Below are positions 52,861 through 64,000 of a DNA stretch of 64,000 bases, in pieces. Position 1 is the first letter of the stretch; each line of letters starts with the position of its first letter. The notes below the pieces were generated by a model. It was not told the DNA's origin and made no database searches. It saw only the letters and a program-made list of their open reading frames with translations. This DNA comes from Methylobacter sp. Its GTDB lineage: Bacteria > Pseudomonadota > Gammaproteobacteria > Methylococcales > Methylomonadaceae. The translations under genes and the position numbers were made by a program. The stretch covers positions 56,132 to 120,131 of the forward strand of contig JAUXTH010000002.1 in the NCBI GenBank assembly GCA_030679035.1, written 5' to 3'.

Positions 52861-53838
52861 ATGGACCGATTCGACAGAATATATCGATTACACAATCTAT
52901 TAACCAACCGGCGCATACCGATACCGTTAACAGTCATCATGAACGAACTCGAATGCGCCAAGGCAACAGCGACGCGTTACATCGAAGACATGCGCACTTA
53001 CCTTGATGCGCCGCTGGAATACGACCGGAAACTCAACGGCTATTACTACGACAGGCAACATGCAAACAAGCCCTACCAACTGCCCGGACTCTGGTTCAGC
53101 GCCGAAGAACTCAACGGCCTGCTGATCTGTCATCAAATCCTGCAAAACATCAGCCCCGGCATACTCAGCCAGCAGATAACTCAGCTGCAACAAAGAATCA
53201 ACCAACTGTTCAAATTAAAGCCGCACACCCCGGTCAATATTTCACAGAAAATAAAAATCCTCTCCATCGGTCGGCGCTTAAAAGACGATGCCCAGTTCAA
53301 GAAAATAGCCACCGCCCTGTTCAACGACAAACAAATCGACATCCACTACACCGCCAGAGGCGCAAACGCCGCACAAAGCCAAAGAACAGTCTCGCCGCAG
53401 CAACTCATCTACTATCGCGATAACTGGTATCTAGCCGCCCACTGCCATCACCGGGATCAACTGCGGGTATTCGCTGTAGACAACATCGACTCAGCAAAAA
53501 TACTAGATCAAACCGCCCAGCCGACCGACCCAAAACAGCTGGAACAATTCCTCACCTCGTCCTACGGCATTTTCAGCGGCACCGCAGAACACACCGCCGT
53601 ACTGGAATTTACCAAAGCCAGAGCTAAATGGGTCGCCGACGAAAACTGGCACCCCAACCAGCAGGGACAATGGCTGGACAACGGCAACTACCAGCTGAGC
53701 ATCCCGTTCAACGACAGCCGCGAATTGATCATGGACATCCTCAAACACGGCGCAGAAGTGGAAGTTAAATCGCCGCAGTTTTTGGTTGATGGAGTCAGGG
53801 AGCAAGTAGAAGCCATGCAAAAAATTTATAAAAAATAA
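52861..53838 (+). CDS. WYL-domain (HTH-WYL-WCX) transcriptional regulator
   Basis: N-terminal wHTH (RIYRLHNLL..ELECAKATATRYIEDMR), a central WYL-like segment (YYRDNWYLAAHC..RVFAVDNI) and a C-terminal extension. Confidence 0.8.
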   Translation: MDRFDRIYRLHNLLTNRRIPIPLTVIMNELECAKATATRYIEDMRTYLDAPLEYDRKLNGYYYDRQHANKPYQLPGLWFSAEELNGLLICHQILQNISPGILSQQITQLQQRINQLFKLKPHTPVNISQKIKILSIGRRLKDDAQFKKIATALFNDKQIDIHYTARGANAAQSQRTVSPQQLIYYRDNWYLAAHCHHRDQLRVFAVDNIDSAKILDQTAQPTDPKQLEQFLTSSYGIFSGTAEHTAVLEFTKARAKWVADENWHPNQQGQWLDNGNYQLSIPFNDSRELIMDILKHGAEVEVKSPQFLVDGVREQVEAMQKIYKK

Positions 53839-53898: not shown

Positions 53899-56601
53899 GT
53901 GATCAAAGTGACTGGAAAGCTGTATTACAAATATTGGGGCAAGGCCGGTTCGGATGACATGCAGGCCAATAACTTTCATTTGTTGCCGTATCATTGTCTG
54001 GATGTGGCGGCAGTAGGCTGGCGATTATTGAAGCCCGACATGCCGCTTTGTAAACAATTAGCAAAGCAATTGGAAGTAGAGCCCGAATGGCTAAGAACAT
54101 TATTTGTTTTCTGTCTGGCACTGCATGATCTGGGCAAATTTGCTCGAGCTTTTCAGGGCTTGAGGCAGGATTTATCAGCTGATTTGGTAAAAGCCAATTC
54201 CAGAATGTCTTATTCTGAACGACACGACAGTTTGGGCTTTTGTCTTTGGCAAGAAACACTGCAAACCAAACTGCTTGAGCAACCGCCAAGCAATGAGTCA
54301 GCAGGTAACGAATGGCTATTTCATTTAGAGCCTTGGCTGGAAATAGTCTCCGGCCATCATGGCATGCCGCCCAAAACAAATTTACGAACGCGGAATTTCT
54401 TTGAAGTTGAAGATGAGCAAGCGGCAATGGCATTTGTACAGGTTGCTATTGCACTTCTTCTTGGCGATTTCGATTTCAAACCGTTACTGGACAAGGCGCT
54501 TAAGAAACGGCTGAAACCCGTATCCTGGCAATTGGCAGGGGTCGCGGTATTGGCCGATTGGTTGGGCTCGAATCAGGATCATTTTAAATACTGCGATAAA
54601 CCAAAAGATTTGAATGTGTATTGGCGTGAGATAGCTATAAAAAAAGCGGAAGACGCTGTTAATACTTTACCGAAAACACCCGATGTTGCCTCATTTCAAA
54701 CTATCGAAAATCTATTTCCTTTTATTCAGCAACCTACACCGCTGCAAAAATATGCCATCAACGAACCGCTTACCGAACTACCGCAACTCTTTATACTAGA
54801 AGATGTCACCGGAGCTGGAAAAACCGAAGCAGCCTTGATTTTAACCCAACGCCTGATGGCGCAAGGCTTGGCAGATGGTTTATATATTGCCTTGCCCACC
54901 ATGGCGACAGCCAATGCCATGTATAAAAGATTGGGCGATGTTTATCGCAAGTTTTATCAATCGGGCAGTGAACCGTCGCTGATTCTGGCTCACGGTGCCC
55001 GCGAGTTGTCCCAGGATTTCCAGGCTTCTGTTATTTTAGCCAAGCAGTCGATAATAGACGGCGATTATCTGAATGGAAACAATGAGGAGGATCAGGAATT
55101 AAGCGCCACCGCCTACTGCAATGCATGGTTGGCCGACAGCCGTAAAAAAGCGCTACTGGCCGATGTCGGCGTCGGCACATTGGATCAAGCTTTGTTAGCG
55201 GTTTTGCCAGCGCGTCATCAGTCGCTACGCTTGCTGGGATTGGGCCGAAAGGTATTGTTGGTCGACGAAGTCCATGCTTACGACAGTTACATGCAAAAGT
55301 TGCTGGATGCTTTGCTGGAAGCCCATGCCCGGCAAGGCGGCAGCGTGATTTTGTTATCGGCAACCTTGCCGCAAACTATGCGCGAAATCTTGGTCAACGC
55401 CTTTCATAAAGGCCTGGAGCAAGCTGCTCCAACGCTGAGCGATCCGGCTCAATATCCTTTAGCCACCCATACCCCGGCAGCAACCGTTGAACAACAGATC
55501 GATACCCGTGAAGCCGTAAAACGTATCGTCAACATTCAACGCCTGAACAGCGAAGACGAAGTGATTGCGCAAATTCAGATAGCCGTTGCTGCTGGACATT
55601 GCGTGTGCTGGATACGCAACACGGTAAAAGCCGCCAGACAGTCTTATCAAGATTTACTGGATGCCGGTATTGATGCGAATCGGTTAAGTTTGTTTCACAG
55701 CCGCTTTGCGATGATCGACCGCCAAGAAATTGAAAACCGCACCTTGCAATATTTTGGTGATGGCTCGACCCCTGAACATAGAAAAGGTCAGGTATTGATA
55801 GCCACGCAAGTGGTTGAGCAGTCGCTGGACTTGGATTTCGACGTGATGATCACCGATTTAGCACCAATCGATTTGATTATTCAGCGAGCGGGAAGATTGA
55901 TGCGTCATGTCCGGGATGCGCAAGGTAACCGGATCAGACAGGAAGGCGCAAAAGACCAGCGAGGCACACCAACGCTTTATCTGTATTCACCAGAACCGAT
56001 AGAAAACGCGGATGTAAATTGGCTGAAACCGGATCATGCCGGAACGCAGGCGATTTACCCGCATATTGGACAGCTTTGGTTGACGGCGAAACATTTGGTT
56101 GGGCGGGGACGATTCGCTATGCCCGATGATGCGAGATATTTAATTGAAGGCGTGTATTCGTTTGATGCCGAAGCAGACATACCGGATGTATTGTTGGACG
56201 GTTCTATGCAAGCGACAAGCAAAGCCATGGTGCAAAAAAGTATGGCTGATTTGAACGTGCTCAAACTTAATAAAGGCTATACCCGTTCCAGCGGCGATTG
56301 GGATGAGGAAACCAGAATCCCGACTCGATTAACTGAAGAAGAAACCGTCTCGGTAGCTCTGGCGATTTTAGAAAACGGCCAGCTAAAACCTTATGCCAAA
56401 GCGGAGCCTTATGCCTGGGCGTTGAGCACCGTCAAATTACCTGAACACGAATGGAAAAAAGCGCAACAGCAGATCCCGGAAAATCTGAAAAGTTTGATCG
56501 AAACCTTGAAAACCGAGCAAAAAGCATTGCGTTGGGTTGAGATATTACCGTTGGAGGAGGGGCAGCTCATCTACAGTCCGCAACATGGGTTTGTAGGGTA
56601 A
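53899..56601 (+). CDS. cas3: Type I-E CRISPR-associated helicase/nuclease Cas3
   Basis: HD domain (HCLDVAAV, LHDLGKF, SGHHG). SF2 helicase motifs (TGAGKTEA, LVDEVHAY, SATLP, QVVEQSLDLDFD, QRAGR). Confidence 0.93.
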   Translation: MIKVTGKLYYKYWGKAGSDDMQANNFHLLPYHCLDVAAVGWRLLKPDMPLCKQLAKQLEVEPEWLRTLFVFCLALHDLGKFARAFQGLRQDLSADLVKANSRMSYSERHDSLGFCLWQETLQTKLLEQPPSNESAGNEWLFHLEPWLEIVSGHHGMPPKTNLRTRNFFEVEDEQAAMAFVQVAIALLLGDFDFKPLLDKALKKRLKPVSWQLAGVAVLADWLGSNQDHFKYCDKPKDLNVYWREIAIKKAEDAVNTLPKTPDVASFQTIENLFPFIQQPTPLQKYAINEPLTELPQLFILEDVTGAGKTEAALILTQRLMAQGLADGLYIALPTMATANAMYKRLGDVYRKFYQSGSEPSLILAHGARELSQDFQASVILAKQSIIDGDYLNGNNEEDQELSATAYCNAWLADSRKKALLADVGVGTLDQALLAVLPARHQSLRLLGLGRKVLLVDEVHAYDSYMQKLLDALLEAHARQGGSVILLSATLPQTMREILVNAFHKGLEQAAPTLSDPAQYPLATHTPAATVEQQIDTREAVKRIVNIQRLNSEDEVIAQIQIAVAAGHCVCWIRNTVKAARQSYQDLLDAGIDANRLSLFHSRFAMIDRQEIENRTLQYFGDGSTPEHRKGQVLIATQVVEQSLDLDFDVMITDLAPIDLIIQRAGRLMRHVRDAQGNRIRQEGAKDQRGTPTLYLYSPEPIENADVNWLKPDHAGTQAIYPHIGQLWLTAKHLVGRGRFAMPDDARYLIEGVYSFDAEADIPDVLLDGSMQATSKAMVQKSMADLNVLKLNKGYTRSSGDWDEETRIPTRLTEEETVSVALAILENGQLKPYAKAEPYAWALSTVKLPEHEWKKAQQQIPENLKSLIETLKTEQKALRWVEILPLEEGQLIYSPQHGFVG

Positions 56602-56685
56602 ATCCCCACGGGTGTGGGGAACGAATTAATTTATTCTATCAAGAAAGAGATAGAATCGGTTCATCCCCACGGGTGTGGGGAATAT
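56596..56685 (-). CRISPR. Two-repeat / one-spacer mini-CRISPR (psi-array) with I-E-type repeats, antisense to the cas genes
   Basis: The repeats are 56596..56624 and 56657..56685, with 61-bp periodicity (29+32) and an identical 20-nt core ATCCCCACGGGTGTGGGGAA. Read on the minus strand the sequence is ATATTCCCCACACCCGTGGGGATGAACCG, which is collinear with the E. coli I-E repeat. The spacer is 56625..56656. Confidence 0.7.
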
Positions 56686-56724
56686 ATAGTTTAAGTGATT
56701 TTATATTTTTTAGAAAGAGTAATT

Positions 56725-56743
56725 AAGAAAGAGAAAGAATCTT
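56725..56743 (-). promoter_or_regulatory. PAM-flanked partial protospacer for the mini-array spacer (candidate Cascade binding/repression site)
   Basis: The minus strand reads 5'-AAG ATTCTTTCTCTTTCTT-3', and the crRNA-sense spacer 5' end is ATTCTATCTCTTTCTT. That is a 15/16 match with the mismatch at position 6 only. Confidence 0.5.
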
Positions 56744-56813
56744 ATCTTTATCGTTTACTTATTTTTGATTTGAAATTATCATTGTCCTGTCAAAACAGCA
56801 ATGAGGATTTAAC

Positions 56814-56924
56814 GTGGATCAAATTAAGGGGATTATCGATGCAATTAACTCTTTTTCGCCGGCACCGTTAGCTGTTATCGGTTTGGCACTAGTGTTAGCA
56901 ATTATTCTGGCACTGAAAATGTAA
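56814..56924 (+). CDS. 36-aa hydrophobic peptide ORF (candidate small membrane toxin)
   Basis: GTG start 6 nt after a GAGGA SD. It encodes MDQIKGIIDAINSFSPAPLAVIGLALVLAIILALKM, with a single C-terminal TM-like helix. It is below the track's ORF size cut-off. Confidence 0.35.
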   Translation: MDQIKGIIDAINSFSPAPLAVIGLALVLAIILALKM

Positions 56925-57001
56925 ATTGTTAAGAAAACTTAGGAATTGGTAACACGAATTCGGTAGAAATAAATTGATGTATTTAGATATAGGAACCAAC
57001 A

Positions 57002-57205
57002 ATGAAACTTAAAGTAATCGTACACGAAGCAGAAGAAGGCGGTTTTTGGGCGGAAGTGCCGTCAATACCTGGATGCGTAACGCAAGGCGATACCTTCGAT
57101 GAATTGCTGGGCAATATTTACGAAGCGGTAGAAGGTTGCTTGGCTGTTGATATTGATGAAACAACTATAACCGGAAACGACAGAGTCATGGAGATAGCCG
57201 TGTGA
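57002..57205 (+). CDS. hicB: HicB-family antitoxin
   Basis: [43 protein letters not shown] is a typical HicB/UPF0150 N-domain. Confidence 0.85.
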
Positions 57206-57408
57206 AGGCGGTCAGCGGCAAAAGGCTTTGTCGGCTGTTGGAAATCAGGTGCTGGGAATTAAAGCGTATCAACGGTAGTCATCATATTTACGCCAAGTCA
57301 GGCAGCAATCTTCGCATTTCCGTCCCGGTACATGGCGACAGTGCATTAAAAATCGGTTTGCAGAAGCAGATTATGAAAATGGCCGACATCGACGAATCCG
57401 AATTGTAA
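57202..57408 (+). CDS. hicA: HicA-family mRNA-interferase toxin
   Basis: [26 protein letters not shown]....ISVPVHG...[11 protein letters not shown] matches the HicA/YcfA pattern. 4-nt overlap with hicB. Confidence 0.85.
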
Positions 57409-57438
57409 TAGACGGCTTGTGAAAGCCAAGGAGAATAC

Positions 57439-59013
57439 ATGAATTTACTCAATGACCGCTGGATACCGGTCATTCGTCAAAATGGGCTGCCGGACACTAT
57501 CGCTCCTTGCCAAATTGTCGAAGCGGATAATCCTGTTGTTGAGATCAATGCGCCAAGACCTGATTTCCAGGGGGCTTTGTACCAGTTGTTAATCGGTTTG
57601 CTGCAAACTTGTTTTTCACCGGAAGATGAAGAGCAATGGTTGGAGTATTGGCGGAAAATTCCGGAGCCGGAAGCATTGCAGGCCTGTTTTGAAAAAGTGG
57701 CGTTTGCGTTCGAGTTGGATGCCGCCGACGGCCCTGCATTTTTGCAGGATTTCGATTTGCCCGATGGAGAAACCAAAGTAATTTCAGCATTATTGATCGA
57801 ATCACCGGGCGGAAAAACACTTAAAGATAATCTCGATCACTTCGTCAAACGCGATAGGGCGAATCAGCTTTGCCCTAGTTGTACTGCAACAGCTTTATTT
57901 ACGCTGCAAACCAATGCGCCTTCCGGCGGCGTTGGTCATCGTGTCGGACTTCGCGGCGGTGGGCCGCTGACAACTTTTATTTTTCCAAAAGTCCCATCGA
58001 CTACTTTATGGCAAAAGCTTTGGTTGAATGTATTGAATCAAGAAGAACTTGAACCTGCTGAAAAAATTGATTCAAGCATCTTACCTTGGCTCGGTAAAAC
58101 CCGTGTTTCTGACAAAGGGCAAATAACCTCGCCTAGCGAAGTTCATCCATTACATGCTTACTGGGGTATGCCTCGTCGTATCCGTTTGACGAAAAAAATA
58201 GAGGATGCCAATTGCGATCTATGCGGCAACCATGCAGAACTTTTATATCAGGCCTACCGAACCAAAAATTACGGCACCAATTACGAAGGCGCTTGGGTGC
58301 ATCCTTTAACACCTTATCGCTTCGACCCGAAAAAGGTCAATCCGCCATTATCCTTGAAAGGTCAGCAAGGTGGCTTAGGTTATCGGCATTGGCTTGGGCT
58401 TACCCTGCAAGACAATGATAACGGCGATAAAGCGTCAAAAACCATACAGTTCTATAACGAAGAGCGCGGCAGAAGCTTACGGGACAATGGCGGGGCTTCG
58501 CTTTGGTGTTTTGGCTACGACATGGACAACATGAAAGCAAGGTGCTGGTATGAATCGCGATTCCCTATCTATTACCTTAGTGAAATGCAACGCAACAATC
58601 TGACGGATTGGGCTGCTGAGTTCGTTAATGCCGCCAAAGAAACCGTCAAAATGCTGCGTGATGAAGTAAAGTCGGCCTGGTTTAATCGCCCGAAAGACGC
58701 CAAGGGCGATATGAGCCAAATCGACGCGCAATTTTGGCAAACCACAGAAACAGATTTTTATCAGTTACTTGAGCAACTGGCAGTGCTCCCAGAGGATACG
58801 CGAATGGCACCGAGTGAAATTTATGCAAGCTGGTATGAAACCCTCAGAAAGCAGATGTTTCAGGTTTTTGAAGCGGCAACCTTGGCATCAACACCGGAAG
58901 ACCTAAATTTAAAGCGGATTGTGAATGCGAAAAAAGCCTTACGCATTAAGTTTTACGGCAACAAAATCATCAAAAATCTCAAAACAAATGCCAAACCAGA
59001 GGGGGCAGCCTGA
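57439..59013 (+). CDS. cas8e: Cascade large subunit Cse1/Cas8e
   Basis: MNLLNDRWIPV N-terminus and GLRGGGPLTTF, collinear with remembered E. coli CasA. Confidence 0.9.
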   Translation: MNLLNDRWIPVIRQNGLPDTIAPCQIVEADNPVVEINAPRPDFQGALYQLLIGLLQTCFSPEDEEQWLEYWRKIPEPEALQACFEKVAFAFELDAADGPAFLQDFDLPDGETKVISALLIESPGGKTLKDNLDHFVKRDRANQLCPSCTATALFTLQTNAPSGGVGHRVGLRGGGPLTTFIFPKVPSTTLWQKLWLNVLNQEELEPAEKIDSSILPWLGKTRVSDKGQITSPSEVHPLHAYWGMPRRIRLTKKIEDANCDLCGNHAELLYQAYRTKNYGTNYEGAWVHPLTPYRFDPKKVNPPLSLKGQQGGLGYRHWLGLTLQDNDNGDKASKTIQFYNEERGRSLRDNGGASLWCFGYDMDNMKARCWYESRFPIYYLSEMQRNNLTDWAAEFVNAAKETVKMLRDEVKSAWFNRPKDAKGDMSQIDAQFWQTTETDFYQLLEQLAVLPEDTRMAPSEIYASWYETLRKQMFQVFEAATLASTPEDLNLKRIVNAKKALRIKFYGNKIIKNLKTNAKPEGAA

Positions 59014-59603
59014 TGAGCGAAGATTATTTTTTAAATGCGGCGGAAAAACAGGCGGTGCATAGCTGGTACGTATGGCTGGACGATAATCGCGGTGACCGAG
59101 CTCGGCTACGCCGCGCGGAAAGCCCGGAAGATATTTTATTGACCGATGCATTTTTTCATTTTTTAGCGAAGATGCCGGAGCAATGGCAACAAAACAAACC
59201 GATGCTGACCAGTGCCAGCATCGCTGGTGCGCTGTCCCATGTTAAAACTGACAAACAAACGCCCAGCAAGCTATACAACAGCAAAGCCACCGATGCGCCG
59301 AAGAAATCGGCTAGTTTCGCCGAACAACTGGCATCGCCGTCGGAAGGCAAAAGCAAGGCTCCGATGAGCGAATTACGTTTTCAGCAATTACAAAAAAGCC
59401 CAACCACCGATGATTTTTATCGCCGGATTATCAGGGCCATTGGACTGCTTGGCGGTAACGTCAATATTATCTCGTTAGCTAACGACATTATTCATTGGCA
59501 TCGTGAGTTTGAGCAGCAAGTCGACCATCGACAGCCTGCTAACCGCCTAGCTGTGCGTTGGGCCACCGATTATTTCACTGCTTTACCTAAAAATTCTGAC
59601 TAA
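59013..59603 (+). CDS. cse2: Cascade small subunit Cse2/Cas11
   Basis: Position and size (196 aa) between cas8e and cas7e. Helical, basic. ATGA-type coupling. Confidence 0.8.
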   Translation: MSEDYFLNAAEKQAVHSWYVWLDDNRGDRARLRRAESPEDILLTDAFFHFLAKMPEQWQQNKPMLTSASIAGALSHVKTDKQTPSKLYNSKATDAPKKSASFAEQLASPSEGKSKAPMSELRFQQLQKSPTTDDFYRRIIRAIGLLGGNVNIISLANDIIHWHREFEQQVDHRQPANRLAVRWATDYFTALPKNSD

Positions 59604-59614
59604 GGAGAGACCAT

Positions 59615-60679
59615 ATGAGCCGCTTTATCCAATTACATTTATTAACCGCTTATCCGCCTGCCAATTTGAATCGTGACGATCAAGGCAGCCCAAAAACTGC
59701 CAAGATGGGCGGTTATGATCGCTTGCGGGTTTCTTCACAATGCTTGAAAAGAACTTGGCGCACATCGGACTTATTTCAAGCTGCAATGAGTGATCATTTG
59801 GGCACACGTACCAAATTATTAGGGATAGATATTTATAACCAGTTAATCGCTGGAGGGATAAAAGAAAAGGACGCCAAAGAATGGACGAAATCCATAGCCG
59901 GGGTATTTGGCGCATTAAAAAAAGCTGAAAAAGACAAACAATTGGCAGACCTTGAGATTGAACAATTAGTTCATGTCAGTCCTGCCGAACTACAGATGAT
60001 GAAAACGCTGACTGAAAAACTCATTGCTGAACAGCGAGCACCGGACGTTGATGAGCTTAAGCTGCTTCGCTTGAATGAACAGGCAGTGGATATTGCCCTG
60101 TTCGGCCGTATGTTAGCTTCCAGCCCCGCTTTTAATATTGAAGCCGCTTGCCAAGTAGCTCACGCCATAAGCGTACATCCAGTGGTGATCGAAGACGATT
60201 ATTTCACCGCTGTCGATGATCTTAATAACGGCTTGGAAGATATGGGCGCGGCTCATATCGGCGAAACCCGCTTCGCAGCCGGTTTGTTCTATTCCTACAT
60301 CTGCATTAACCGGGAATTGCTGATTAAAAATCTGGATGGCAATGAAGACTTGGCAAACAAAGCCATTCGTGCTTTAACCGAAGCGGCGGTTAAAGTCGCT
60401 CCCGAAGGCAAGCAAAACAGCTTTGCGTCCCGCGCTTATGCTTCGTATGTATTGGCGGAAAAGGGCAATCAGCAACCCCGTTCGTTGTCAATTGCCTACC
60501 TCAAACCGATTAACCATCGTGAAAATGAAGATTTCATCGCCGATTCCATTACCGCCATCATTAAACAAAAAGACAGTTTCGATAAGGTCTACGGTGCCTG
60601 TGCGGATACTCGCTGTGAACTGAATGTACCCAAAGAGCAGGGTACTTTGGCTGAGTTGCTGGATTTCGTCGGTCAATAA
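59615..60679 (+). CDS. cas7: Cascade backbone subunit Cas7e (CasC)
   Basis: FIQLHLLTAYPPANLNRDDQGSPKTAKMGGYDRLRVSSQCLKRTWR is a canonical Cas7e N-terminus. Confidence 0.92.
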   Translation: MSRFIQLHLLTAYPPANLNRDDQGSPKTAKMGGYDRLRVSSQCLKRTWRTSDLFQAAMSDHLGTRTKLLGIDIYNQLIAGGIKEKDAKEWTKSIAGVFGALKKAEKDKQLADLEIEQLVHVSPAELQMMKTLTEKLIAEQRAPDVDELKLLRLNEQAVDIALFGRMLASSPAFNIEAACQVAHAISVHPVVIEDDYFTAVDDLNNGLEDMGAAHIGETRFAAGLFYSYICINRELLIKNLDGNEDLANKAIRALTEAAVKVAPEGKQNSFASRAYASYVLAEKGNQQPRSLSIAYLKPINHRENEDFIADSITAIIKQKDSFDKVYGACADTRCELNVPKEQGTLAELLDFVGQ

Positions 60680-60690
60680 AGGGGCACATC

Positions 60691-61473
60691 ATGGACATTC
60701 TGCTATTCCGTCTTTACGGGCCGATGGCAAGCTGGGGTGAAATCGCCGTTGGTGAAAGCCGCCATACTGCCAGTTATCCCAGTAAATCCGCCATTATCGG
60801 CTTGCTGGGAGCCGCATTGGGCATTGCGCGCGGCGACGAACAAAAACAGCAACAGCTTCAACAAGGCTACGCGTTAGCTGTGGAATTATTGACGGCCGGT
60901 AATTTGCTGCGCGATTACCACACCACTCAAGTGCCCGACTCGGTGGGCAAGTTTACTTATCGCACCCGGCGTGATGAACTGATTTTGGGCAAAGAACGCT
61001 TGGGTACCATTTTATCCAGCCGAGAATACCGCACCGACGCTTTGGCGCTGGTTGCGATTCGTGCTTTAGCAGATGCCCCGTTTACGTTGGCTGAAATTCA
61101 GGCGGCTTTGTTACAACCCAAATATCACCTGTACCTGGGGCGCAAATCCTGTCCTTTGGCAGCGCCTTTGCACCCGCAGCTTATAACCGATCAGCTTAAC
61201 TATTATGACGCGTTTAAAGCTTATCAACATAAACCGATGTTGCCGACGTCGATAGCCAGCGATGGAACTTTGGCTAAGCGTGATTATGACTGGTTGGGTC
61301 GGCCGAATGATCGCCATTATTACTGGGAAGGACTGCCGGAGGATTTTTCCGATGATACTTTGGCTTTAACCCGGCGACAAACGCGCACCCGGCATGATCA
61401 GCCGTTATCTCGCAAACGCTGGCAGTTTATGCCGCGCCAAGAGCATTATTTATTCTGTCCGGGAGGTGAGTAA
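60691..61473 (+). CDS. cas5: Cas5e (CasD)
   Basis: LLFRLYGPMASWGEIAVGESRHTASYPSKSAIIGLLGAALGI is a canonical Cas5e N-terminus. Confidence 0.92.
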   Translation: MDILLFRLYGPMASWGEIAVGESRHTASYPSKSAIIGLLGAALGIARGDEQKQQQLQQGYALAVELLTAGNLLRDYHTTQVPDSVGKFTYRTRRDELILGKERLGTILSSREYRTDALALVAIRALADAPFTLAEIQAALLQPKYHLYLGRKSCPLAAPLHPQLITDQLNYYDAFKAYQHKPMLPTSIASDGTLAKRDYDWLGRPNDRHYYWEGLPEDFSDDTLALTRRQTRTRHDQPLSRKRWQFMPRQEHYLFCPGGE

Positions 61474-62345
61474 TGTATTTTTCCAGAGTCTGCATCCGTC
61501 CCAATATTTTCAAATCATCGCAATTAGGGAGGGTACTTGAAGGCAATGTTTACGGTATTCATCGCCTGTTATGGGATTTGTTTCCTGATGACCAGCAAAG
61601 AACTTTTTTATACCGCGAAGAAATTGCTCGTGAACAGTTGGGGGCATTGCCAACTGTACGCGGCGAAGCTGTTTATTATCTGGTATCGCAAACCAAGCCA
61701 ATCGAAACTGAATTATTCAACGTTGACTCGAAGGACTATCAGCCGCAACTGGAAATAGGACAGCGCCTGACATTTGAATGTCGAGCCAATCCAGTTGTGA
61801 CAAGGCAAGGCAAAAAACATGACGTGGTTATGGATGCGCAGCAGCAGTTTTTAAAATTGTTGGTTAAAGAGTTCAATCTTGATACCGATTTGCCAGCCAA
61901 ACAGGAAAAGAGTGCATACAAAAGACTACTGCTGGATAAAGGTGGAGAAACACTCAGCCAGCGGCTTACCGAAATACTGCAAACTGATCCACTTTATGCC
62001 GAACGTCTACAACAGTCTGGGCAGCTTTCTGACCGGCTGGAATGGGCACTAAAAGCCTGTGTCGATAGAACTCTTGAACACTGGTTCATTAAGCAGGGCG
62101 AACGTCTGGGATTCAAGCTGGTTGCTGATAATAACAATTTAAGCAAGCTGCAAAACAGCACTTATCAGTGGCATAGTTTGTCAGAAAAAGGGGGGAAGGG
62201 CGATAAAGCAGGCTTCAGCTCGGTCGATTTTACTGGAGAACTGCAAATAACCGATATGGAGAAATTCAAGGAAGCTTTGTTTATCGGTATTGGGCGATCA
62301 AAGGCATTTGGTTGTGGATTGCTGATGGTACGGCGATGTGGGTAG
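61473..62345 (+). CDS. cas6e: Cas6e (CasE) crRNA endoribonuclease with a non-canonical C-terminal end
   Basis: MYFSRV..HRLLWDLFP.. and GIGRSKAFGCGLL motifs. The last residues, MVRRCG, replace the usual SLA-type ending. Confidence 0.9.
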   Translation: MYFSRVCIRPNIFKSSQLGRVLEGNVYGIHRLLWDLFPDDQQRTFLYREEIAREQLGALPTVRGEAVYYLVSQTKPIETELFNVDSKDYQPQLEIGQRLTFECRANPVVTRQGKKHDVVMDAQQQFLKLLVKEFNLDTDLPAKQEKSAYKRLLLDKGGETLSQRLTEILQTDPLYAERLQQSGQLSDRLEWALKACVDRTLEHWFIKQGERLGFKLVADNNNLSKLQNSTYQWHSLSEKGGKGDKAGFSSVDFTGELQITDMEKFKEALFIGIGRSKAFGCGLLMVRRCG

Positions 62346-62400
62346 GTATTTTAAGCACCAAGTTTTTAGTCTGCGGGCTGTCATTTTTGGATGTTTGCGA

Positions 62401-62637
62401 ATGATCTTACAAGTAACAAATGTCAAATATCTGCATGATTATCAATTGTGGCTAAGGTTCAATGATGATTCGGAAGGCATCGTCGATTTAGACGGCGAAC
62501 TGTGGGGAACTGTTTTTGATTCACTTAATGACCTGACTTTATTCAGTCAGGCTAAATTGGATAAAGAGTTGGCTACCGTGGTTTGGCCTAACGGGGCGGA
62601 TTTTGCTCCTGAGTTTCTACATGCGTTATTAAAGTGA
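62401..62637 (+). CDS. DUF2442-family protein
   Basis: VTNVKYLHDYQLWLRFNDDSEGIVDL...LDKELATVVWPNGADFAPEFL is a typical DUF2442 pattern. ATG at 62401. Confidence 0.75.
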   Translation: MILQVTNVKYLHDYQLWLRFNDDSEGIVDLDGELWGTVFDSLNDLTLFSQAKLDKELATVVWPNGADFAPEFLHALLK

Positions 62638-62648
62638 TAACCAGATGA

Positions 62649-62711
62649 GTTTACGGCATAGGCCCCGCCAAAGCCTTCGGTTGCGGCCTGCTTTCTTTAG
62701 CAAGGATTTAA
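62649..62711 (+). pseudogene. Displaced remnant of a Cas6e C-terminus
   Basis: Translates to VYGIGPAKAFGCGLLSLARI*, which is the canonical CasE ending. It differs from the current cas6e 3' end mainly at synonymous positions. Confidence 0.7.
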
Positions 62712-62754
62712 GTGAAACTTATATTCAGTTCATTGCAAAACGCGCGAGAACACT

Positions 62755-63030
62755 ATGAATCTATCAAAAAACATTAAACCGATTAGCTATCTCAAGGCTA
62801 ATGCGGCGCAAGTCGCTTTGGAACCAAAAGATTCCGGGCAAGCGATGGTCATTACTCAAAACAGCGAAGCCACTATGATTGTACAGTCCGTTGCTGAGTA
62901 CGAACGCATGCAAGAAACTTTGGCATTGTTGAAAATGCTGGCGCAAAGCCAACAAGCGGTCAGTTTAGGGAAAACCATCCCCAGTGCGGATGCCTTTAGC
63001 CAATTGCGTGCGCGGCGCGGGCTAGCATGA
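62755..63030 (+). CDS. Phd/YefM-family antitoxin
   Basis: KPISYLKANAAQV.....G.AMVITQNSEATMIVQSVAEYERMQETLALLKML. 4-nt overlap with the toxin ORF. Confidence 0.8.
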   Translation: MNLSKNIKPISYLKANAAQVALEPKDSGQAMVITQNSEATMIVQSVAEYERMQETLALLKMLAQSQQAVSLGKTIPSADAFSQLRARRGLA

Positions 63031-63353
63031 CGCTGGAGGTTGTTCTCTCGGAACCGGCGTTGACTGACTTACTGGATATTAATGATTATTACCTATGCGA
63101 AGTCAGTGATCGCGTTGCAGGTAAGATCATTGATGGCTTGGAAGTCGCTGTAAACAATTTAGCTGAATTTCCTGATCGGGGCAGTATTCCGAAGGAGTTG
63201 TTGTCTTTGGGGATTCGGTAGTATCGGCAAGTGATTGAAAAGCCTTATCGGATTATTTATGAAACATTTGCCGATAAAATTGTATTTCATGCAATACTCG
63301 ATGGACGGCGCGATATGGAAAGTTTACTCATGCAGCGTATTTTACGTGGATGA
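63027..63353 (+). pseudogene. ParE/RelE-family toxin interrupted by an in-frame TAG
   Basis: A 109-codon frame with TAG at codon 65 (63219..63221). Downstream, in the same frame, it reads YRQVIEKPYRIIYETFADKIVFHAILDGRRDME.., the conserved toxin C-half. Confidence 0.75.
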
Positions 63354-63611: not shown

Positions 63612-64000
63612 ATGCTTCCACCCCTAAGACCCATCACCATGAAAGAACGTGTCTCCATGGCTTTTATCGAAAAAGGCCAGGTTGACGTTAAAGACGGCGC
63701 TTTCGTTGTCATCGACGAAACCGGCATCAGAACCCATATCCCGGTCGGCAGTATCGCCTGCATCATGCTCGAACCGGGGACGCGGGTTTCTCATCAGGCC
63801 GTCACTTTGGCCGCCAGAGCCGGAACCTTGCTGGTCTGGGTCGGCGAGGCTGGGGTTCGGCTTTATGCTTCCGGTCAGCCGGGCGGGGCGCGTTCGGATC
63901 GCTTGCTGTATCAGGCCAAATTGGCATTGGACGATGTCGCGCGGTTAAAAGTGGTGCGCAAAATGTACGAAATCCGTTTTGGCGAGAAACCGCCGGAACG
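63612..64000 (+). CDS. cas1: Cas1 (type I-E), N-terminal part; continues past window end
   Basis: My own translation gives MLPPLRPITMKERVSMAFIEKGQVDVKDGAFVVIDETGIRTHIPVGSIACIMLEPGTRVSHQAVTLAARAGTLLVWVGEAGVRLYASGQPGGARSDRLLYQAKLAL.., nearly collinear with remembered E. coli Cas1. A GGAG SD lies 5 nt upstream. It is not in the ORF track because there is no stop codon in the window. Confidence 0.92.
   Translation, partial: MLPPLRPITMKERVSMAFIEKGQVDVKDGAFVVIDETGIRTHIPVGSIACIMLEPGTRVSHQAVTLAARAGTLLVWVGEAGVRLYASGQPGGARSDRLLYQAKLALDDVARLKVVRKMYEIRFGEKPPE

What the first reader, a model, noticed from the sequence alone, without database searches (positions are those of the whole stretch)
56596..56743. 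Antisense two-repeat mini-CRISPR at the cas3 stop codon whose spacer has a PAM-flanked, seed-type partial match 69 bp away (CreA/CreR-like)
**The mini-array.** Two I-E-type 29-nt repeats are spaced exactly 61 bp apart (29+32).
- 56596..56624 is GGGTAAATCCCCACGGGTGTGGGGAACGA and contains the cas3 TAA at 56599..56601.
- 56657..56685 is CGGTTCATCCCCACGGGTGTGGGGAATAT.
- The hairpin core is identical in both; the flanks are degenerate.

**Orientation.** On the minus strand the repeats align with the E. coli I-E repeat GTGTTCCCCGCGCCAGCGGGGATAAACCG. The unit should therefore be transcribed antisense to the cas genes. The resulting crRNA would have a 5' handle AUGAACCG and the spacer ATTCTATCTCTTTCTTGATAGAATAAATTAAT.

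**The target.**
- Spacer positions 1-16 match the minus strand of 56725..56740 (ATTCTTTCTCTTTCTT) at 15/16.
- The single mismatch is position 6, the base that is flipped out and not paired in I-E Cascade.
- Only 5 of positions 17-32 match.
- On that strand the site is preceded by AAG (56743..56741), the canonical I-E PAM. The spacer in the array is preceded by CCG.

**Interpretation.** A PAM plus PAM-proximal partial complementarity to a neighbouring site is the hallmark of CreA (antitoxin of CreTA, known from Haloarcula type I-B) and of Cas-regulating CreR mini-arrays. In those systems Cascade binds without Cas3 cleavage and represses a promoter. I am not aware of such a module described with this layout in a I-E locus: antisense to the cas genes, overlapping the cas3 stop, and next to a peptide ORF.
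Basis: partly seen in the sequence, partly recalled or inferred. Interest (0 to 1): 0.9.

Follow-up and report, generated by a model that had tools for sequence, protein, structure and literature searches.

The report
Regulatory mini-CRISPR guiding Cascade onto itself
An inverted two-repeat mini-CRISPR at the end of cas3 most likely makes a guide RNA that steers the cell's own Cascade complex onto the promoter of a conserved 36-residue membrane peptide gene and the Cascade genes; this kind of switch is already known in type I-E systems, but the peptide family is undescribed.

Summary
The CreA/CreR-like reading is strongly supported by comparative evidence.

- **Conservation:** the same inverted mini-array sits at the cas3 3' end in 28 of 80 related type I-E loci.
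- **Co-variation:** the guides differ between loci, yet each has its own nearby partial target. 25 of 27 targets carry an AAG PAM that the search did not require.
- **Pairing signature:** pairing is near-perfect at positions 1-5, 7-11 and 13-15. It is relaxed at positions 6 and 12, as expected for Cascade.
- **Strand:** the first repeat keeps a 6-bp hairpin through compensatory changes, with G·U pairs only on the minus strand.

The novelty claim fails. Antisense I-E mini-arrays between cas3 and cas8e were described by Shmakov et al. 2023 and Liu et al. 2023 (Salmonella CreR). Basta et al. 2025 showed experimentally, in Citrobacter rodentium, the same layout with a small translated toxin ORF.

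What may be new is the 36-aa ORF next to the target. It is a conserved membrane peptide under purifying selection. It has no match in four family libraries. It is found only between cas3 and cas8e, almost always with a mini-array and target. Whether it is a toxin is untested.

Verdict: a new member of a known kind, of moderate interest.

The parts
53899..56601 (+). cas3; its stop codon TAA (56599-56601) lies inside the second repeat of the mini-array
   Evidence: Pfam Cas3_HD and Cas3-like_C_2; sequence read
56657..56685 (-). PsiR1, the first repeat of the mini-array on the minus strand: ATATTCCCCACACCCGTGGGG + ATGAACCG. The last 8 nt (56664-56657) would form the 5' handle AUGAACCG.
   Evidence: A 6-bp stem ending exactly at the handle is kept in 32 unique variants, with 173 Watson-Crick pairs, 9 G·U pairs on the minus strand and 0 on the plus strand.
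56625..56656 (-). Psi-spacer (guide) ATTCTATCTCTTTCTTGATAGAATAAATTAAT. It is internally self-complementary (ATTCTATC...GATAGAAT).
56596..56624 (-). PsiR2: TCGTTCCCCACACCCGTGGGG + ATTTACCC. The hairpin would form the 3' end of the mature RNA. The tail is degenerate and overlaps the cas3 stop.
   Evidence: PsiR2 overlaps or lies inside the cas3 3' end in most loci that have the element.
56698..56726 (-). Candidate promoter of the mini-array: -35 TTAATT (56726-56721), 17-nt spacer, -10 TAAAAT (56703-56698), 12 nt before PsiR1. The -35 lies inside the Cascade footprint.
   Evidence: Consensus scoring 8/12; better-scoring equivalents at the same place in L006, L018, L008, L051. Inferred, not shown.
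56709..56740 (-). Protospacer. Positions 1-16 (56740-56725, ATTCTTTCTCTTTCTT) match the guide at 15/16, with the mismatch at position 6. The PAM-distal half is unmatched.
   Evidence: (D10)
56741..56743 (-). PAM 5'-AAG-3' on the protospacer strand
   Evidence: AAG flanks 25 of 27 best sites found without requiring a PAM.
56754..56782 (+). Sigma-70-like promoter: -35 TTTACT (56754-56759), 17-nt spacer, -10 TATCAT (56777-56782). It starts 10 bp from the PAM and ends 31 nt before the peptide start codon.
   Evidence: Equivalent promoters are conserved in related loci, with the -35 either overlapping the PAM or 9-10 bp from it.
56803..56924 (+). Shine-Dalgarno GAGGA (56803-56807) and a 36-codon ORF (GTG 56814 to TAA 56924). 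Product: MDQIKGIIDAINSFSPAPLAVIGLALVLAIILALKM, an amphipathic N-terminus, an SPxP hinge and one transmembrane helix.
   Evidence: (dN/dS 0.03-0.2)
57002..57408 (+). hicB (57002-57205) and hicA (57202-57408), a toxin-antitoxin cargo inserted between the peptide gene and cas8e
   Evidence: Pfam. Related loci without hicBA have the peptide stop 1-58 nt before cas8e.
57439..62345 (+). Cascade genes cas8e, cse2, cas7, cas5, cas6e, the presumed downstream part of the regulated operon
   Evidence: Pfam. No terminator-like site between 56400 and 57500.

Best explanation
**What it is.** The region 56596-56685 is a degenerate two-repeat mini-CRISPR read from the minus strand. It belongs to the class called CreR/CreA or crlRNA.

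**Proposed mechanism (inferred, not measured).**
1. A weak promoter at about 56698-56726 starts transcription a few bases before PsiR1.
2. Cas6e cuts after each repeat hairpin. This gives a 61-nt RNA: AUGAACCG, the 32-nt guide, then UCGUUCCCCACACCCGUGGGG.
3. Loaded into Cascade, the guide recognises AAG at 56743-56741 and pairs only with the first 15-16 bases of the site 56740-56725.
4. By established knowledge of I-E R-loop locking, such pairing gives stable binding without Cas3 recruitment.
5. The bound complex sits back-to-back between two divergent promoters. It covers the -35 of the mini-array's own promoter. It abuts the -35/UP region of the plus-strand promoter (56754-56782).
6. That plus-strand promoter drives the 36-aa membrane peptide gene, hicBA and, probably, cas8e to cas6e.

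**Consequence.** Cascade represses its own operon and the peptide. Anything that titrates or blocks Cascade (abundant crRNAs, anti-CRISPRs, cas mutations) would derepress them.

**Shown here.** The anatomy, the conservation, the guide/target/PAM co-variation, the strand, and that the ORF is a real protein-coding gene.
For: 1. **The element is conserved.** Inverted PsiR2 plus PsiR1 with an intact handle occur at the cas3 3' end in 28 of 80 related I-E loci.
2. **Guides differ but each has its own target.** With an AAG-flanked site required and mismatches allowed only at positions 6, 12 and 18, 21 of 29 loci give a run of 12-18 nt. Guides tested against other loci's intergenic regions give at most 7 in 764 comparisons.
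3. **An unbiased search gives the same answer.** With no PAM and no positional weighting, 27 of 29 non-redundant guides have at least 12/18 matches nearby. 25 of the 27 sites are flanked by AAG.
4. **The pairing pattern is that of Cascade.** Match frequency is 0.93-1.0 at positions 1-5 and 7-11, and 0.89-1.0 at 13-15. It is 0.33 at position 6 and 0.41 at position 12, then decays.
5. **Independent loci behave the same.** Among loci found through the peptide alone, L081 and L084 showed a mini-array plus an AAG target automatically. L082 and L083 showed them on manual reading, L083 with an AAA PAM. Thirteen of 14 informative further loci did too (12, L104 by eye).
6. **The RNA is made from the minus strand.** The PsiR1 stem is kept through compensatory changes, with 9 G·U pairs on the minus strand and none on the plus strand.
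7. **The promoter is conserved.** A -35/-10 promoter lies next to the PAM and about 30 nt before the peptide start. In loci without hicBA only 1-58 nt separate the peptide gene from cas8e, so cas8e must share this promoter.
8. **The mechanism has experimental precedent in I-E.** See Salmonella CreR and C. rodentium CreTA.
Against: - There are no expression data. Both promoters are consensus predictions, and the mini-array promoter scores only 8/12.
- In this window the -35 lies 10 bp from the PAM rather than overlapping it as in most relatives.
- hicBA lies between the peptide gene and cas8e and may carry its own promoter. Cascade autorepression is therefore less certain here than in loci without hicBA.
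- The closest relatives by Cas8e identity (L001, L002) lack both mini-array and peptide yet keep intact cas genes, as does L079, whose Cas3 C-terminus is 89% identical. The module is therefore dispensable.
- The guide folds on itself through its seed, which could hinder loading.
Confidence: 0.82

Rival explanations
1. **Toxin-antitoxin guard (CreTA-like, as in Citrobacter rodentium).** The main role of the guide is to keep the 36-aa membrane peptide, a translated toxin, silent. Loss or inhibition of Cascade would then release the peptide and stop growth. This would make Cascade addictive, or cause abortive infection when an anti-CRISPR arrives. This reading is compatible with the best explanation and adds to it.
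For: - The layout matches the C. rodentium I-E module: a small translated ORF behind a promoter and ribosome-binding site in the cas3/casA gap, CreA on the opposite strand, and the target at the promoter edge.
- The ORF is a real gene. dN/dS is 0.03-0.2, and variable columns by codon position are 18/8/33.
- It encodes one strongly hydrophobic helix, with mean hydropathy 2.94 over residues 18-34. Small membrane toxins look like this.
- It is found only in this slot. All 8 looked-up homologues lie next to cas3 and, wherever the contig reaches it, immediately upstream of cas8e or hicBA-cas8e.
- It almost always occurs with a mini-array and target.
- Losses are asymmetric. Mini-arrays occur without the peptide (L010 has a truncated peptide; other clades have none). 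An intact peptide without a mini-array was seen at most once (L039, a weak homologue). L001, L002 and L079 lack both parts.
Against: - Toxicity is untested.
- There is no similarity to any known toxin family in Pfam, NCBIfam, PADLOC or PHROGs.
- The peptide gene is the first cistron of the Cascade operon, so it is made whenever Cascade is made. That fits a benign accessory or membrane regulator as well.
- Many start codons are GTG or TTG.
Confidence: 0.4
2. **Pure Cas autoregulator (CreR) with a harmless passenger.** The guide only tunes Cascade expression. The peptide is a non-toxic small membrane protein or a translated leader that happens to be co-transcribed.
For: - cas8e has no room for its own promoter in loci without hicBA.
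- The Salmonella I-E CreR works without a toxin.
- Mini-arrays occur without this peptide in many I-E loci.
Against: - A mere leader would not keep its amino-acid sequence under strong purifying selection across orders of bacteria.
- The strict link between the peptide and the mini-array needs some explanation.
Confidence: 0.4
3. **Plus-strand role.** The two G+C-rich hairpins and the hairpin between them act on the cas3 mRNA as a terminator or stabiliser. Alternatively, the minus-strand transcript acts as an antisense RNA to the cas3 3' end. On this reading the spacer/target match is incidental.
For: - PsiR2 overlaps or lies inside the cas3 3' end in most loci.
- Three consecutive hairpins fold strongly, with z = -6.6.
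- The PsiR2 tail is T-rich on the minus strand in many loci. PsiR2 may therefore also terminate the small RNA.
Against: - No terminator-like site was found on the plus strand.
- G·U pairs occur only on the minus strand.
- The 8-nt handle is conserved.
- The PAM, the seed and the period-6 mismatch pattern are unexplained by this reading.
Confidence: 0.08
4. **Decayed remnant of an inverted CRISPR array plus a chance match in A/G-rich low-complexity DNA.**
For: - The region is A/T-rich and repetitive. AGAAAGAG occurs twice, and the window carries a 14-nt duplication-like insert relative to L005.
Against: - The element is conserved with co-varying guide and target across about 40 loci from several bacterial orders.
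- The cross-locus control reaches at most 7, against observed runs of 12-18.
- AAG is present at 25 of 27 sites although the search did not require it.
Confidence: 0.02

Closest known systems
Citrobacter rodentium type I-E CreTA (Basta, Campbell et al., Nat Microbiol 2025; PMC12055562)
   Same: - Type I-E, in the cas3/casA(cas8e) intergenic region.
- A crRNA-like CreA lies on the strand opposite to the cas genes.
- The partial target carries a canonical PAM and sits at the upstream edge of a promoter.
- A small ORF with a ribosome-binding site lies downstream and must be translated.
   Different: - Their ORF is 96 bp (31 codons), the PAM is ATG, and the intergenic region is 495 bp. Toxicity and Cascade dependence were shown experimentally.
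- Here the ORF has 36 codons, the PAM is AAG, the ORF sits directly in front of hicBA and cas8e, and nothing has been tested.
- Sequence relatedness of the two peptides could not be examined.
Salmonella enterica type I-E CreR (Liu et al. 2023; bioRxiv 10.1101/2023.03.10.532045, later Cell Host Microbe)
   Same: - A degenerate mini-CRISPR upstream of casA.
- PsiR1 keeps the 5' handle and PsiR2 keeps the 3' part.
- A 15-nt PAM-proximal match flanked by AAG, near the casA promoter.
- Cascade autorepression that senses crRNA load and anti-CRISPRs.
   Different: - No associated small ORF or toxin is reported there.
- In Salmonella the target is about 140 bp upstream of casA. Here a peptide gene and hicBA intervene, and the target is 699 bp upstream of cas8e.
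Predicted I-E mini-arrays of Shmakov et al. 2023 (PMC10120712; Nucleic Acids Res)
   Same: - Mini-arrays between cas3 and cas8 in about 19% of bacterial I-E loci.
- Transcribed opposite to cas3, with the better-conserved repeat next to the seed.
- Target at the cas8 promoter with an AAG PAM.
- Tolerated mismatches at every sixth position, which that paper describes for I-F1 mini-arrays.
   Different: That text does not mention a conserved membrane-peptide gene, the self-complementary guide, or overlap of PsiR2 with the cas3 stop.
Haloarcula hispanica type I-B CreTA (Li et al., Science 2021) and Pseudomonas aeruginosa I-F CreTA
   Same: A crRNA-like antitoxin with partial complementarity guides Cascade to repress a neighbouring toxin promoter inside the cas locus.
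   Different: Those toxins are RNAs that act through rare arginine or proline codons. Here the proline codons vary freely (CCG, CCA, CCT, CCC), and the ORF evolves as a protein.
CrePA (Cascade-repressed protein toxin with a KilA-N domain)
   Same: A protein toxin under CreA/Cascade transcriptional control.
   Different: CreP is a KilA-N protein that targets FtsZ. The 36-aa peptide has no KilA-N or any other Pfam domain.

Membership tests
CreR/CreA-type regulatory mini-CRISPR (crlRNA) | Two repeat-like sequences flank one spacer-like sequence, inside a cas locus and apart from the ordinary array | tested here: met
   56596-56685, 29+32+29 nt. The core occurs only twice in the window. The ordinary array lies beyond the window.
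CreR/CreA-type regulatory mini-CRISPR (crlRNA) | PsiR1 keeps the hairpin and 5'-handle nucleotides. PsiR2 keeps the hairpin (the 3' handle), while its other parts degenerate. | tested here: met
   Handle ATGAACCG is 8/8. The PsiR2 tail is ATTTACCC. The PsiR1 stem is kept through compensatory changes in 32 variants.
CreR/CreA-type regulatory mini-CRISPR (crlRNA) | Partial, PAM-proximal complementarity of the guide to a site in the same locus, flanked by the subtype's PAM | tested here: met
   15/16 match with AAG in the window. The match co-varies across loci, with relaxed positions 6 and 12.
CreR/CreA-type regulatory mini-CRISPR (crlRNA) | The target lies in or next to the promoter of effector cas genes or of a toxin | tested here: inconclusive
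   A predicted -35/-10 lies 10 bp from the PAM and is conserved in relatives. The transcription start sites have not been measured.
CreR/CreA-type regulatory mini-CRISPR (crlRNA) | Cas6-dependent maturation and Cascade-dependent transcriptional repression without Cas3 cleavage | not testable with these tools
   Needs small-RNA sequencing and reporter assays.
I-E CreTA with translated toxin (C. rodentium type) | A small ORF with promoter and ribosome-binding site in the cas3/cas8e gap, and CreA on the opposite strand upstream of it | tested here: met
   Shine-Dalgarno GAGGA, GTG at 56814, 36 codons, divergent from the mini-array. Compare.
I-E CreTA with translated toxin (C. rodentium type) | The ORF product is toxic when Cascade repression is lifted | not testable with these tools
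   Indirect evidence only: purifying selection, a membrane helix, and strict co-occurrence with the mini-array.
I-E CreTA with translated toxin (C. rodentium type) | Sequence homology to the C. rodentium CreT peptide | not tested
   The toxin sequence is not in the paper's text or held supplements. The Citrobacter genome is not in the searchable collections that remained.
RNA-toxin CreTA (Haloarcula I-B, Pseudomonas I-F) | The toxin acts as an RNA through runs of a rare codon that sequester a tRNA | tested here: not met
   Proline codons at positions 16 and 18 vary among CCG, CCA, CCT and CCC. Substitutions concentrate at third codon positions.
CrePA | The toxin carries a KilA-N domain | tested here: not met
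   No Pfam domain in the peptide.
Type I toxin-antitoxin systems (Hok, Ldr, TisB, Ibs and others) | A small hydrophobic toxin whose mRNA is bound by an antisense RNA antitoxin; membership in a known toxin family | tested here: not met
   The small RNA is divergent from the peptide mRNA and does not overlap it. No match to any toxin family at E<=1.

The most novel reading that the evidence does not exclude
**The peptide as a new Cascade-repressed toxin.** The 36-aa peptide may found a new, unannotated family of Cascade-repressed membrane toxins. These would be wired as the first cistron of the I-E Cascade operon in methanotrophs, nitrifiers and marine gammaproteobacteria. One guide RNA would then give both Cas autoregulation and a self-guarding or anti-anti-CRISPR suicide switch.

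**The guide as a self-masked RNA.** The guide's PAM-distal half is selected to pair with its own seed, so target, seed and anti-seed co-vary three ways. That would be a further, undescribed layer. It could set how well the regulatory guide competes with real crRNAs for Cascade.
Probability: 0.3. Interest if true: 0.7.

Novelty: new member of a known kind. Interest (0 to 1): 0.45.

Why it matters
Regulatory mini-CRISPRs are how many CRISPR systems sense their own state, guard against loss and respond to anti-CRISPRs.

- **Natural-variation evidence.** This locus and its roughly 40 relatives give an unusually clean dataset for the I-E version. The guide, target and PAM co-vary. The every-sixth-base relaxation is visible in evolution, not only in structures.
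- **A new candidate partner.** The data also expose a conserved, unannotated membrane peptide tied to the switch. If it is toxic, the single experimental I-E case (Citrobacter) extends to environmental bacteria, with a different and easily testable effector.
- **Practical use.** Such modules matter for deleting or engineering native I-E systems in methanotrophs, and for annotating small genes that pipelines miss.

Tried and rejected
**Searches that found nothing.**
- Rfam scan of 55500-58000: nothing meaningful.
- The peptide against Pfam, NCBIfam, PADLOC and PHROGs: no family, only a marginal generic membrane-helix hit to OppC_N.
- Viral contigs scanned for a phage mimic of this guide (handle plus seed): none.

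**Things that could not be done.**
- Comparing the peptide with the C. rodentium toxin: the sequence is not in the text or held supplements.
- The first profile of the peptide was too diverse for the metagenome scan. A narrower one worked.
- The alignment with the 36-aa window peptide as first sequence was too short for the protein database search. It was re-run with a 40-aa homologue first.

**Ideas considered and rejected.**
- An RNA toxin acting through the out-of-frame mini-ORF MQLTLFRRHR (56839-56871), or through the proline codons. The codon-position pattern and the varying proline codons show selection on the 36-aa protein frame.
- A plus-strand terminator: none was predicted.
- A chance match: rejected by the cross-locus and shuffle controls.

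**Limits of my own scans.**
- My first fixed-geometry repeat filter missed loci with other loop lengths (L037, L104, L026/L101). These were recovered by eye.
- L039 remains a possible peptide without a mini-array.

Full report
**What is in the sequence**

- Window 56596-56624 and 56657-56685 are two 29-nt units 61 nt apart. They share the core CCCCACGGGTGTGGGG.
- That core occurs nowhere else in the 64-kb window, even with three mismatches allowed.
- The first unit contains the TAA (56599-56601) that ends a 900-aa Cas3.

The surrounding genes form a type I-E locus:
- a WYL-domain regulator (52861-53838);
- cas3;
- the mini-array;
- a 36-codon ORF (56814-56924);
- hicB and hicA (57002-57408);
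- cas8e, cse2, cas7, cas5 and cas6e (57439-62345);
- a DUF2442 gene and a phd/parE pair.

The window has no ordinary CRISPR array. Its last 420 nt align with a 303-aa ORF of the 91%-identical Methylobacter contig L005. That ORF lies just upstream of L005's array and is probably cas1. The array should therefore lie just past the window end.

**Orientation**

A Cas8e search brought in 80 related I-E loci from Methylococcales, Nitrosomonas, marine gammaproteobacteria, Desulfobacterota and Enterobacterales. In 60 of them the ordinary array downstream of the cas genes reads GTGTTCCCCACACCCGTGGGGATGAACCG, or a close variant, on the cas-coding strand. The window units are the reverse complement of this.

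Read on the minus strand:
- PsiR1 (56685-56657) is ATATTCCCCACACCCGTGGGG-ATGAACCG, with the 8-nt 5' handle perfect.
- PsiR2 (56624-56596) is TCGTTCCCCACACCCGTGGGG-ATTTACCC, with the hairpin perfect and the dispensable tail degenerate.

This is the pattern of degeneration reported for CreA and CreR.

**Conservation and co-variation, the decisive test**

The same inverted element lies at the cas3 3' end in 28 of the 80 loci. It usually overlaps the stop codon or lies inside the last cas3 codons. About 30 other loci have cas3 and cas8e overlapping or nearly abutting, which leaves no room for it.

The guides differ from locus to locus, yet each has its own partial match 40-110 nt from PsiR1.

*Strict search.* I required AAG and allowed mismatches only at positions 6, 12 and 18. 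Then 21 of 29 loci give a run of 12-18 nt from position 1. Guides tested against other loci's intergenic regions never exceed 7 in 764 comparisons. None of 20,000 shuffles of the window guide reaches 16.

*Unbiased search.* I used no PAM requirement and no positional weighting.
- 27 of 29 non-redundant guides have at least 12/18 matches nearby.
- 25 of the 27 sites are flanked by AAG.
- The match frequency is 0.93-1.0 at positions 1-5 and 7-11, and 0.89-1.0 at 13-15.
- It is 0.33 at position 6 and 0.41 at position 12, and it decays after position 15.

This period-6 relaxation is the known footprint of type I crRNA-DNA pairing.

**Strand of the RNA**

PsiR1 keeps a stem of about 6 bp that ends exactly at the handle in 32 distinct variants. 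Their stem sequences are unrelated: CCCCAC/GTGGGG, CCCAAT/ATTGGG, CTCCAA/TTGGAG, CGCTAA/TTAGCG, CTCTTT/AAAGAG and others. Across these stems there are 173 Watson-Crick pairs, 9 G·U pairs on the minus strand and none that would be G·U on the plus strand. The selected structure is therefore in the minus-strand RNA, as Cas6e processing requires.

**Promoters (inferred)**

On the plus strand, a sigma-70-like promoter starts 10 bp from the PAM and ends 31 nt before the ORF's start codon. Its -35 is TTTACT (56754-56759), the spacer is 17 nt, and its -10 is TATCAT (56777-56782). Related loci have an equivalent promoter. Its -35 (TTTACA, TTGACA or TTTACT) either overlaps the PAM or lies 9-10 bp from it. 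This is partly from the script and partly from my own reading of the printed sequences.

On the minus strand, a candidate promoter for the mini-array has its -35 inside the protospacer. In the window this is TTAATT at 56726-56721 and TAAAAT at 56703-56698. Scores are better in L006, L018, L008 and L051.

One bound Cascade would thus sit between two divergent promoters. No terminator-like site lies between the ORF and cas8e.

**The neighbouring ORF**

The 36-codon ORF has a GAGGA Shine-Dalgarno sequence and a GTG start. It encodes MDQIKGIIDAINSFSPAPLAVIGLALVLAIILALKM.
- Homologues of 36-44 aa occupy the same place in 18 of the 80 loci (17 by similarity search and L053 by ORF scan). They normally end 1-58 nt before the cas8e start, so cas8e must share their promoter.
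- The gene evolves as a protein. dN/dS is 0.03-0.2, with synonymous sites near saturation. Variable columns by codon position are 18/8/33. The two conserved prolines use all four codons, which argues against a tRNA-sequestering RNA toxin.
- Residues 18-34 form a strongly hydrophobic helix, with mean hydropathy 2.94.
- There is no match in Pfam, NCBIfam, PADLOC or PHROGs.
- A profile search of 5.8 billion proteins finds only 30 clusters. All that carry a name are called 'hypothetical'.
- All eight homologues whose contexts I looked up lie just downstream of cas3. Wherever the contig reaches it, they are immediately upstream of cas8e, or of hicBA-cas8e.
- Loci found through the peptide alone, in protein-database contigs and in metagenomes, again carry an inverted mini-array and, with one unclear case (L089), an AAG- or AAA-flanked co-varying target.

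Exceptions and losses:
- L001, L002 and L079 are close relatives. L001 and L002 have 93-94% Cas8e identity, and all three have 86-90% identity in the Cas3 C-terminus. They keep hicBA but lack both mini-array and peptide.
- L010 has a mini-array but a truncated peptide and no target.
- L039 has a weak peptide homologue without a detectable mini-array.

**Comparison with what is known**

The kind of element is established.
- Shmakov et al. 2023 describe I-E mini-arrays between cas3 and cas8. They are transcribed opposite to cas3, with an AAG-flanked target at the cas8 promoter, in about 19% of bacterial I-E loci. The same paper notes sixth-position mismatches for I-F1 mini-arrays.
- Liu et al. 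2023 showed that a Salmonella I-E CreR with a 15-nt AAG-flanked match represses the casA promoter. They also showed that it responds to crRNA load and anti-CRISPRs.
- Basta et al. 2025 showed in Citrobacter rodentium that the cas3/casA gap contains a 96-bp ORF that is toxic only if translated. Loss of Cascade unleashes a toxic element in that gap. They predicted a CreA on the opposite strand and a target at the promoter UP element.
- Other relatives use RNA toxins (Haloarcula I-B, Pseudomonas I-F) or a KilA-N protein (CrePA).

The window element is therefore a new member of a known kind. I found no description of the membrane-peptide family, but the literature search was limited to open-access text.

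**Most likely mechanism and its uncertainty**

I put 0.82 on this reading: the element makes a Cas6e-processed guide that directs Cascade to bind, without cleavage, next to the plus-strand promoter and to repress it.
- In relatives without hicBA this is necessarily also Cascade autorepression.
- In this window hicBA lies between the peptide gene and cas8e, which leaves room for an additional promoter.
- Whether the peptide is a toxin (CreTA reading, about 0.4) or a harmless co-regulated membrane protein (about 0.4) cannot be decided by sequence.
- A decayed remnant plus a chance match is excluded.

**A further observation**

The guide is self-complementary. ATTCTATC (positions 1-8) pairs with GATAGAAT (positions 17-24).
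- The same architecture recurs with unrelated sequences in other loci.
- At least 5 contiguous pairs involving the seed occur in 41% of 29 guides. The figure is 10% for 1,879 ordinary spacers from the same loci and 10% for shuffled guides (p = 3.6e-5).
- The two main papers do not mention this.
- Its function is unknown. One possibility is a self-masked guide that competes poorly with real crRNAs.

Noticed in passing
window 56625-56656 (minus strand); also guides in L030, L053, L042, L065, L049: The guide's PAM-distal half is the reverse complement of its own seed (ATTCTATC...GATAGAAT). This recurs with unrelated sequences in other loci: at least 5 bp in 41% of 29 guides, against 10% of 1,879 ordinary spacers (p = 3.6e-5). 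Target, seed and anti-seed therefore co-vary three ways. It is not mentioned in the two main papers on these elements.
   Followed up: partly
window 56814-56924; L005-L008, L011, L014, L018, L022, L026, L028-L030, L037, L042, L051, L053, L081-L104: An unannotated family of 36-44-aa single-helix membrane peptides. It is found only between cas3 and cas8e of I-E loci, is under strong purifying selection, and has no match in Pfam, NCBIfam, PADLOC or PHROGs. Only 30 clusters exist in 5.8 billion proteins.
   Followed up: yes
window 57002-57408; L001, L002, L079, L086-L088: A hicB-hicA pair is inserted between the peptide gene and cas8e. The same insertion occurs in Methylomonas methanica contigs. 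L001, L002 and L079 keep hicBA but have lost the mini-array and the peptide gene together.
   Followed up: partly
window 56712-56725: Relative to the 91%-identical locus L005, the window has 14 extra bases (AGAAAGAGTAATTA) between the matched part of the target and the mini-array. The target also differs from L005 at guide position 6, a position that does not pair.
   Followed up: partly
window 62338-63221: More toxin-antitoxin-like cargo lies inside the cas locus, between cas6e and the probable cas1. It comprises a DUF2442 gene (62338-62637, overlapping the cas6e end) and a Phd/YefM-ParE pair (62755-63221). The probable cas1 starts near 63612-63649 and runs off the window.
   Followed up: no
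window 52861-53838; L083 126-962; L090 1-524; L082 1-543: A WYL-domain regulator (WYL + WCX here; BrxR-like in L083 and L090) sits directly upstream of cas3 here and in several related I-E loci. This suggests a second, protein-based layer of control.
   Followed up: no
window 61473-62345: Cas6e is 290 aa, about 70-90 residues longer than the usual roughly 200-220 aa. The Pfam match spans the whole protein, so it must contain insertions.
   Followed up: no
L065 9781-9942, L067 9781-9942, L071 9779-9958, L072 9842-9946: Brenneria and Pectobacterium I-E loci have a different conserved small ORF about 160-220 nt upstream of cas8e; in the three that carry a mini-array (L065, L067, L071; none was detected in L072) it lies between the target and cas8e. 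It is 34-59 aa, with a basic C-terminus ...KRDRSLWRSLLNRLK.... Unrelated small genes may therefore occupy this slot in different lineages.
   Followed up: partly
PsiR2 tails: window 56596-56603; L028, L049, L059, L061: On the minus strand the degenerate tail after the PsiR2 hairpin is T-rich (ATTT..., and up to ATTTTTTA in some loci). PsiR2 may therefore double as an intrinsic terminator that stops the small RNA from running antisense into cas3.
   Followed up: no
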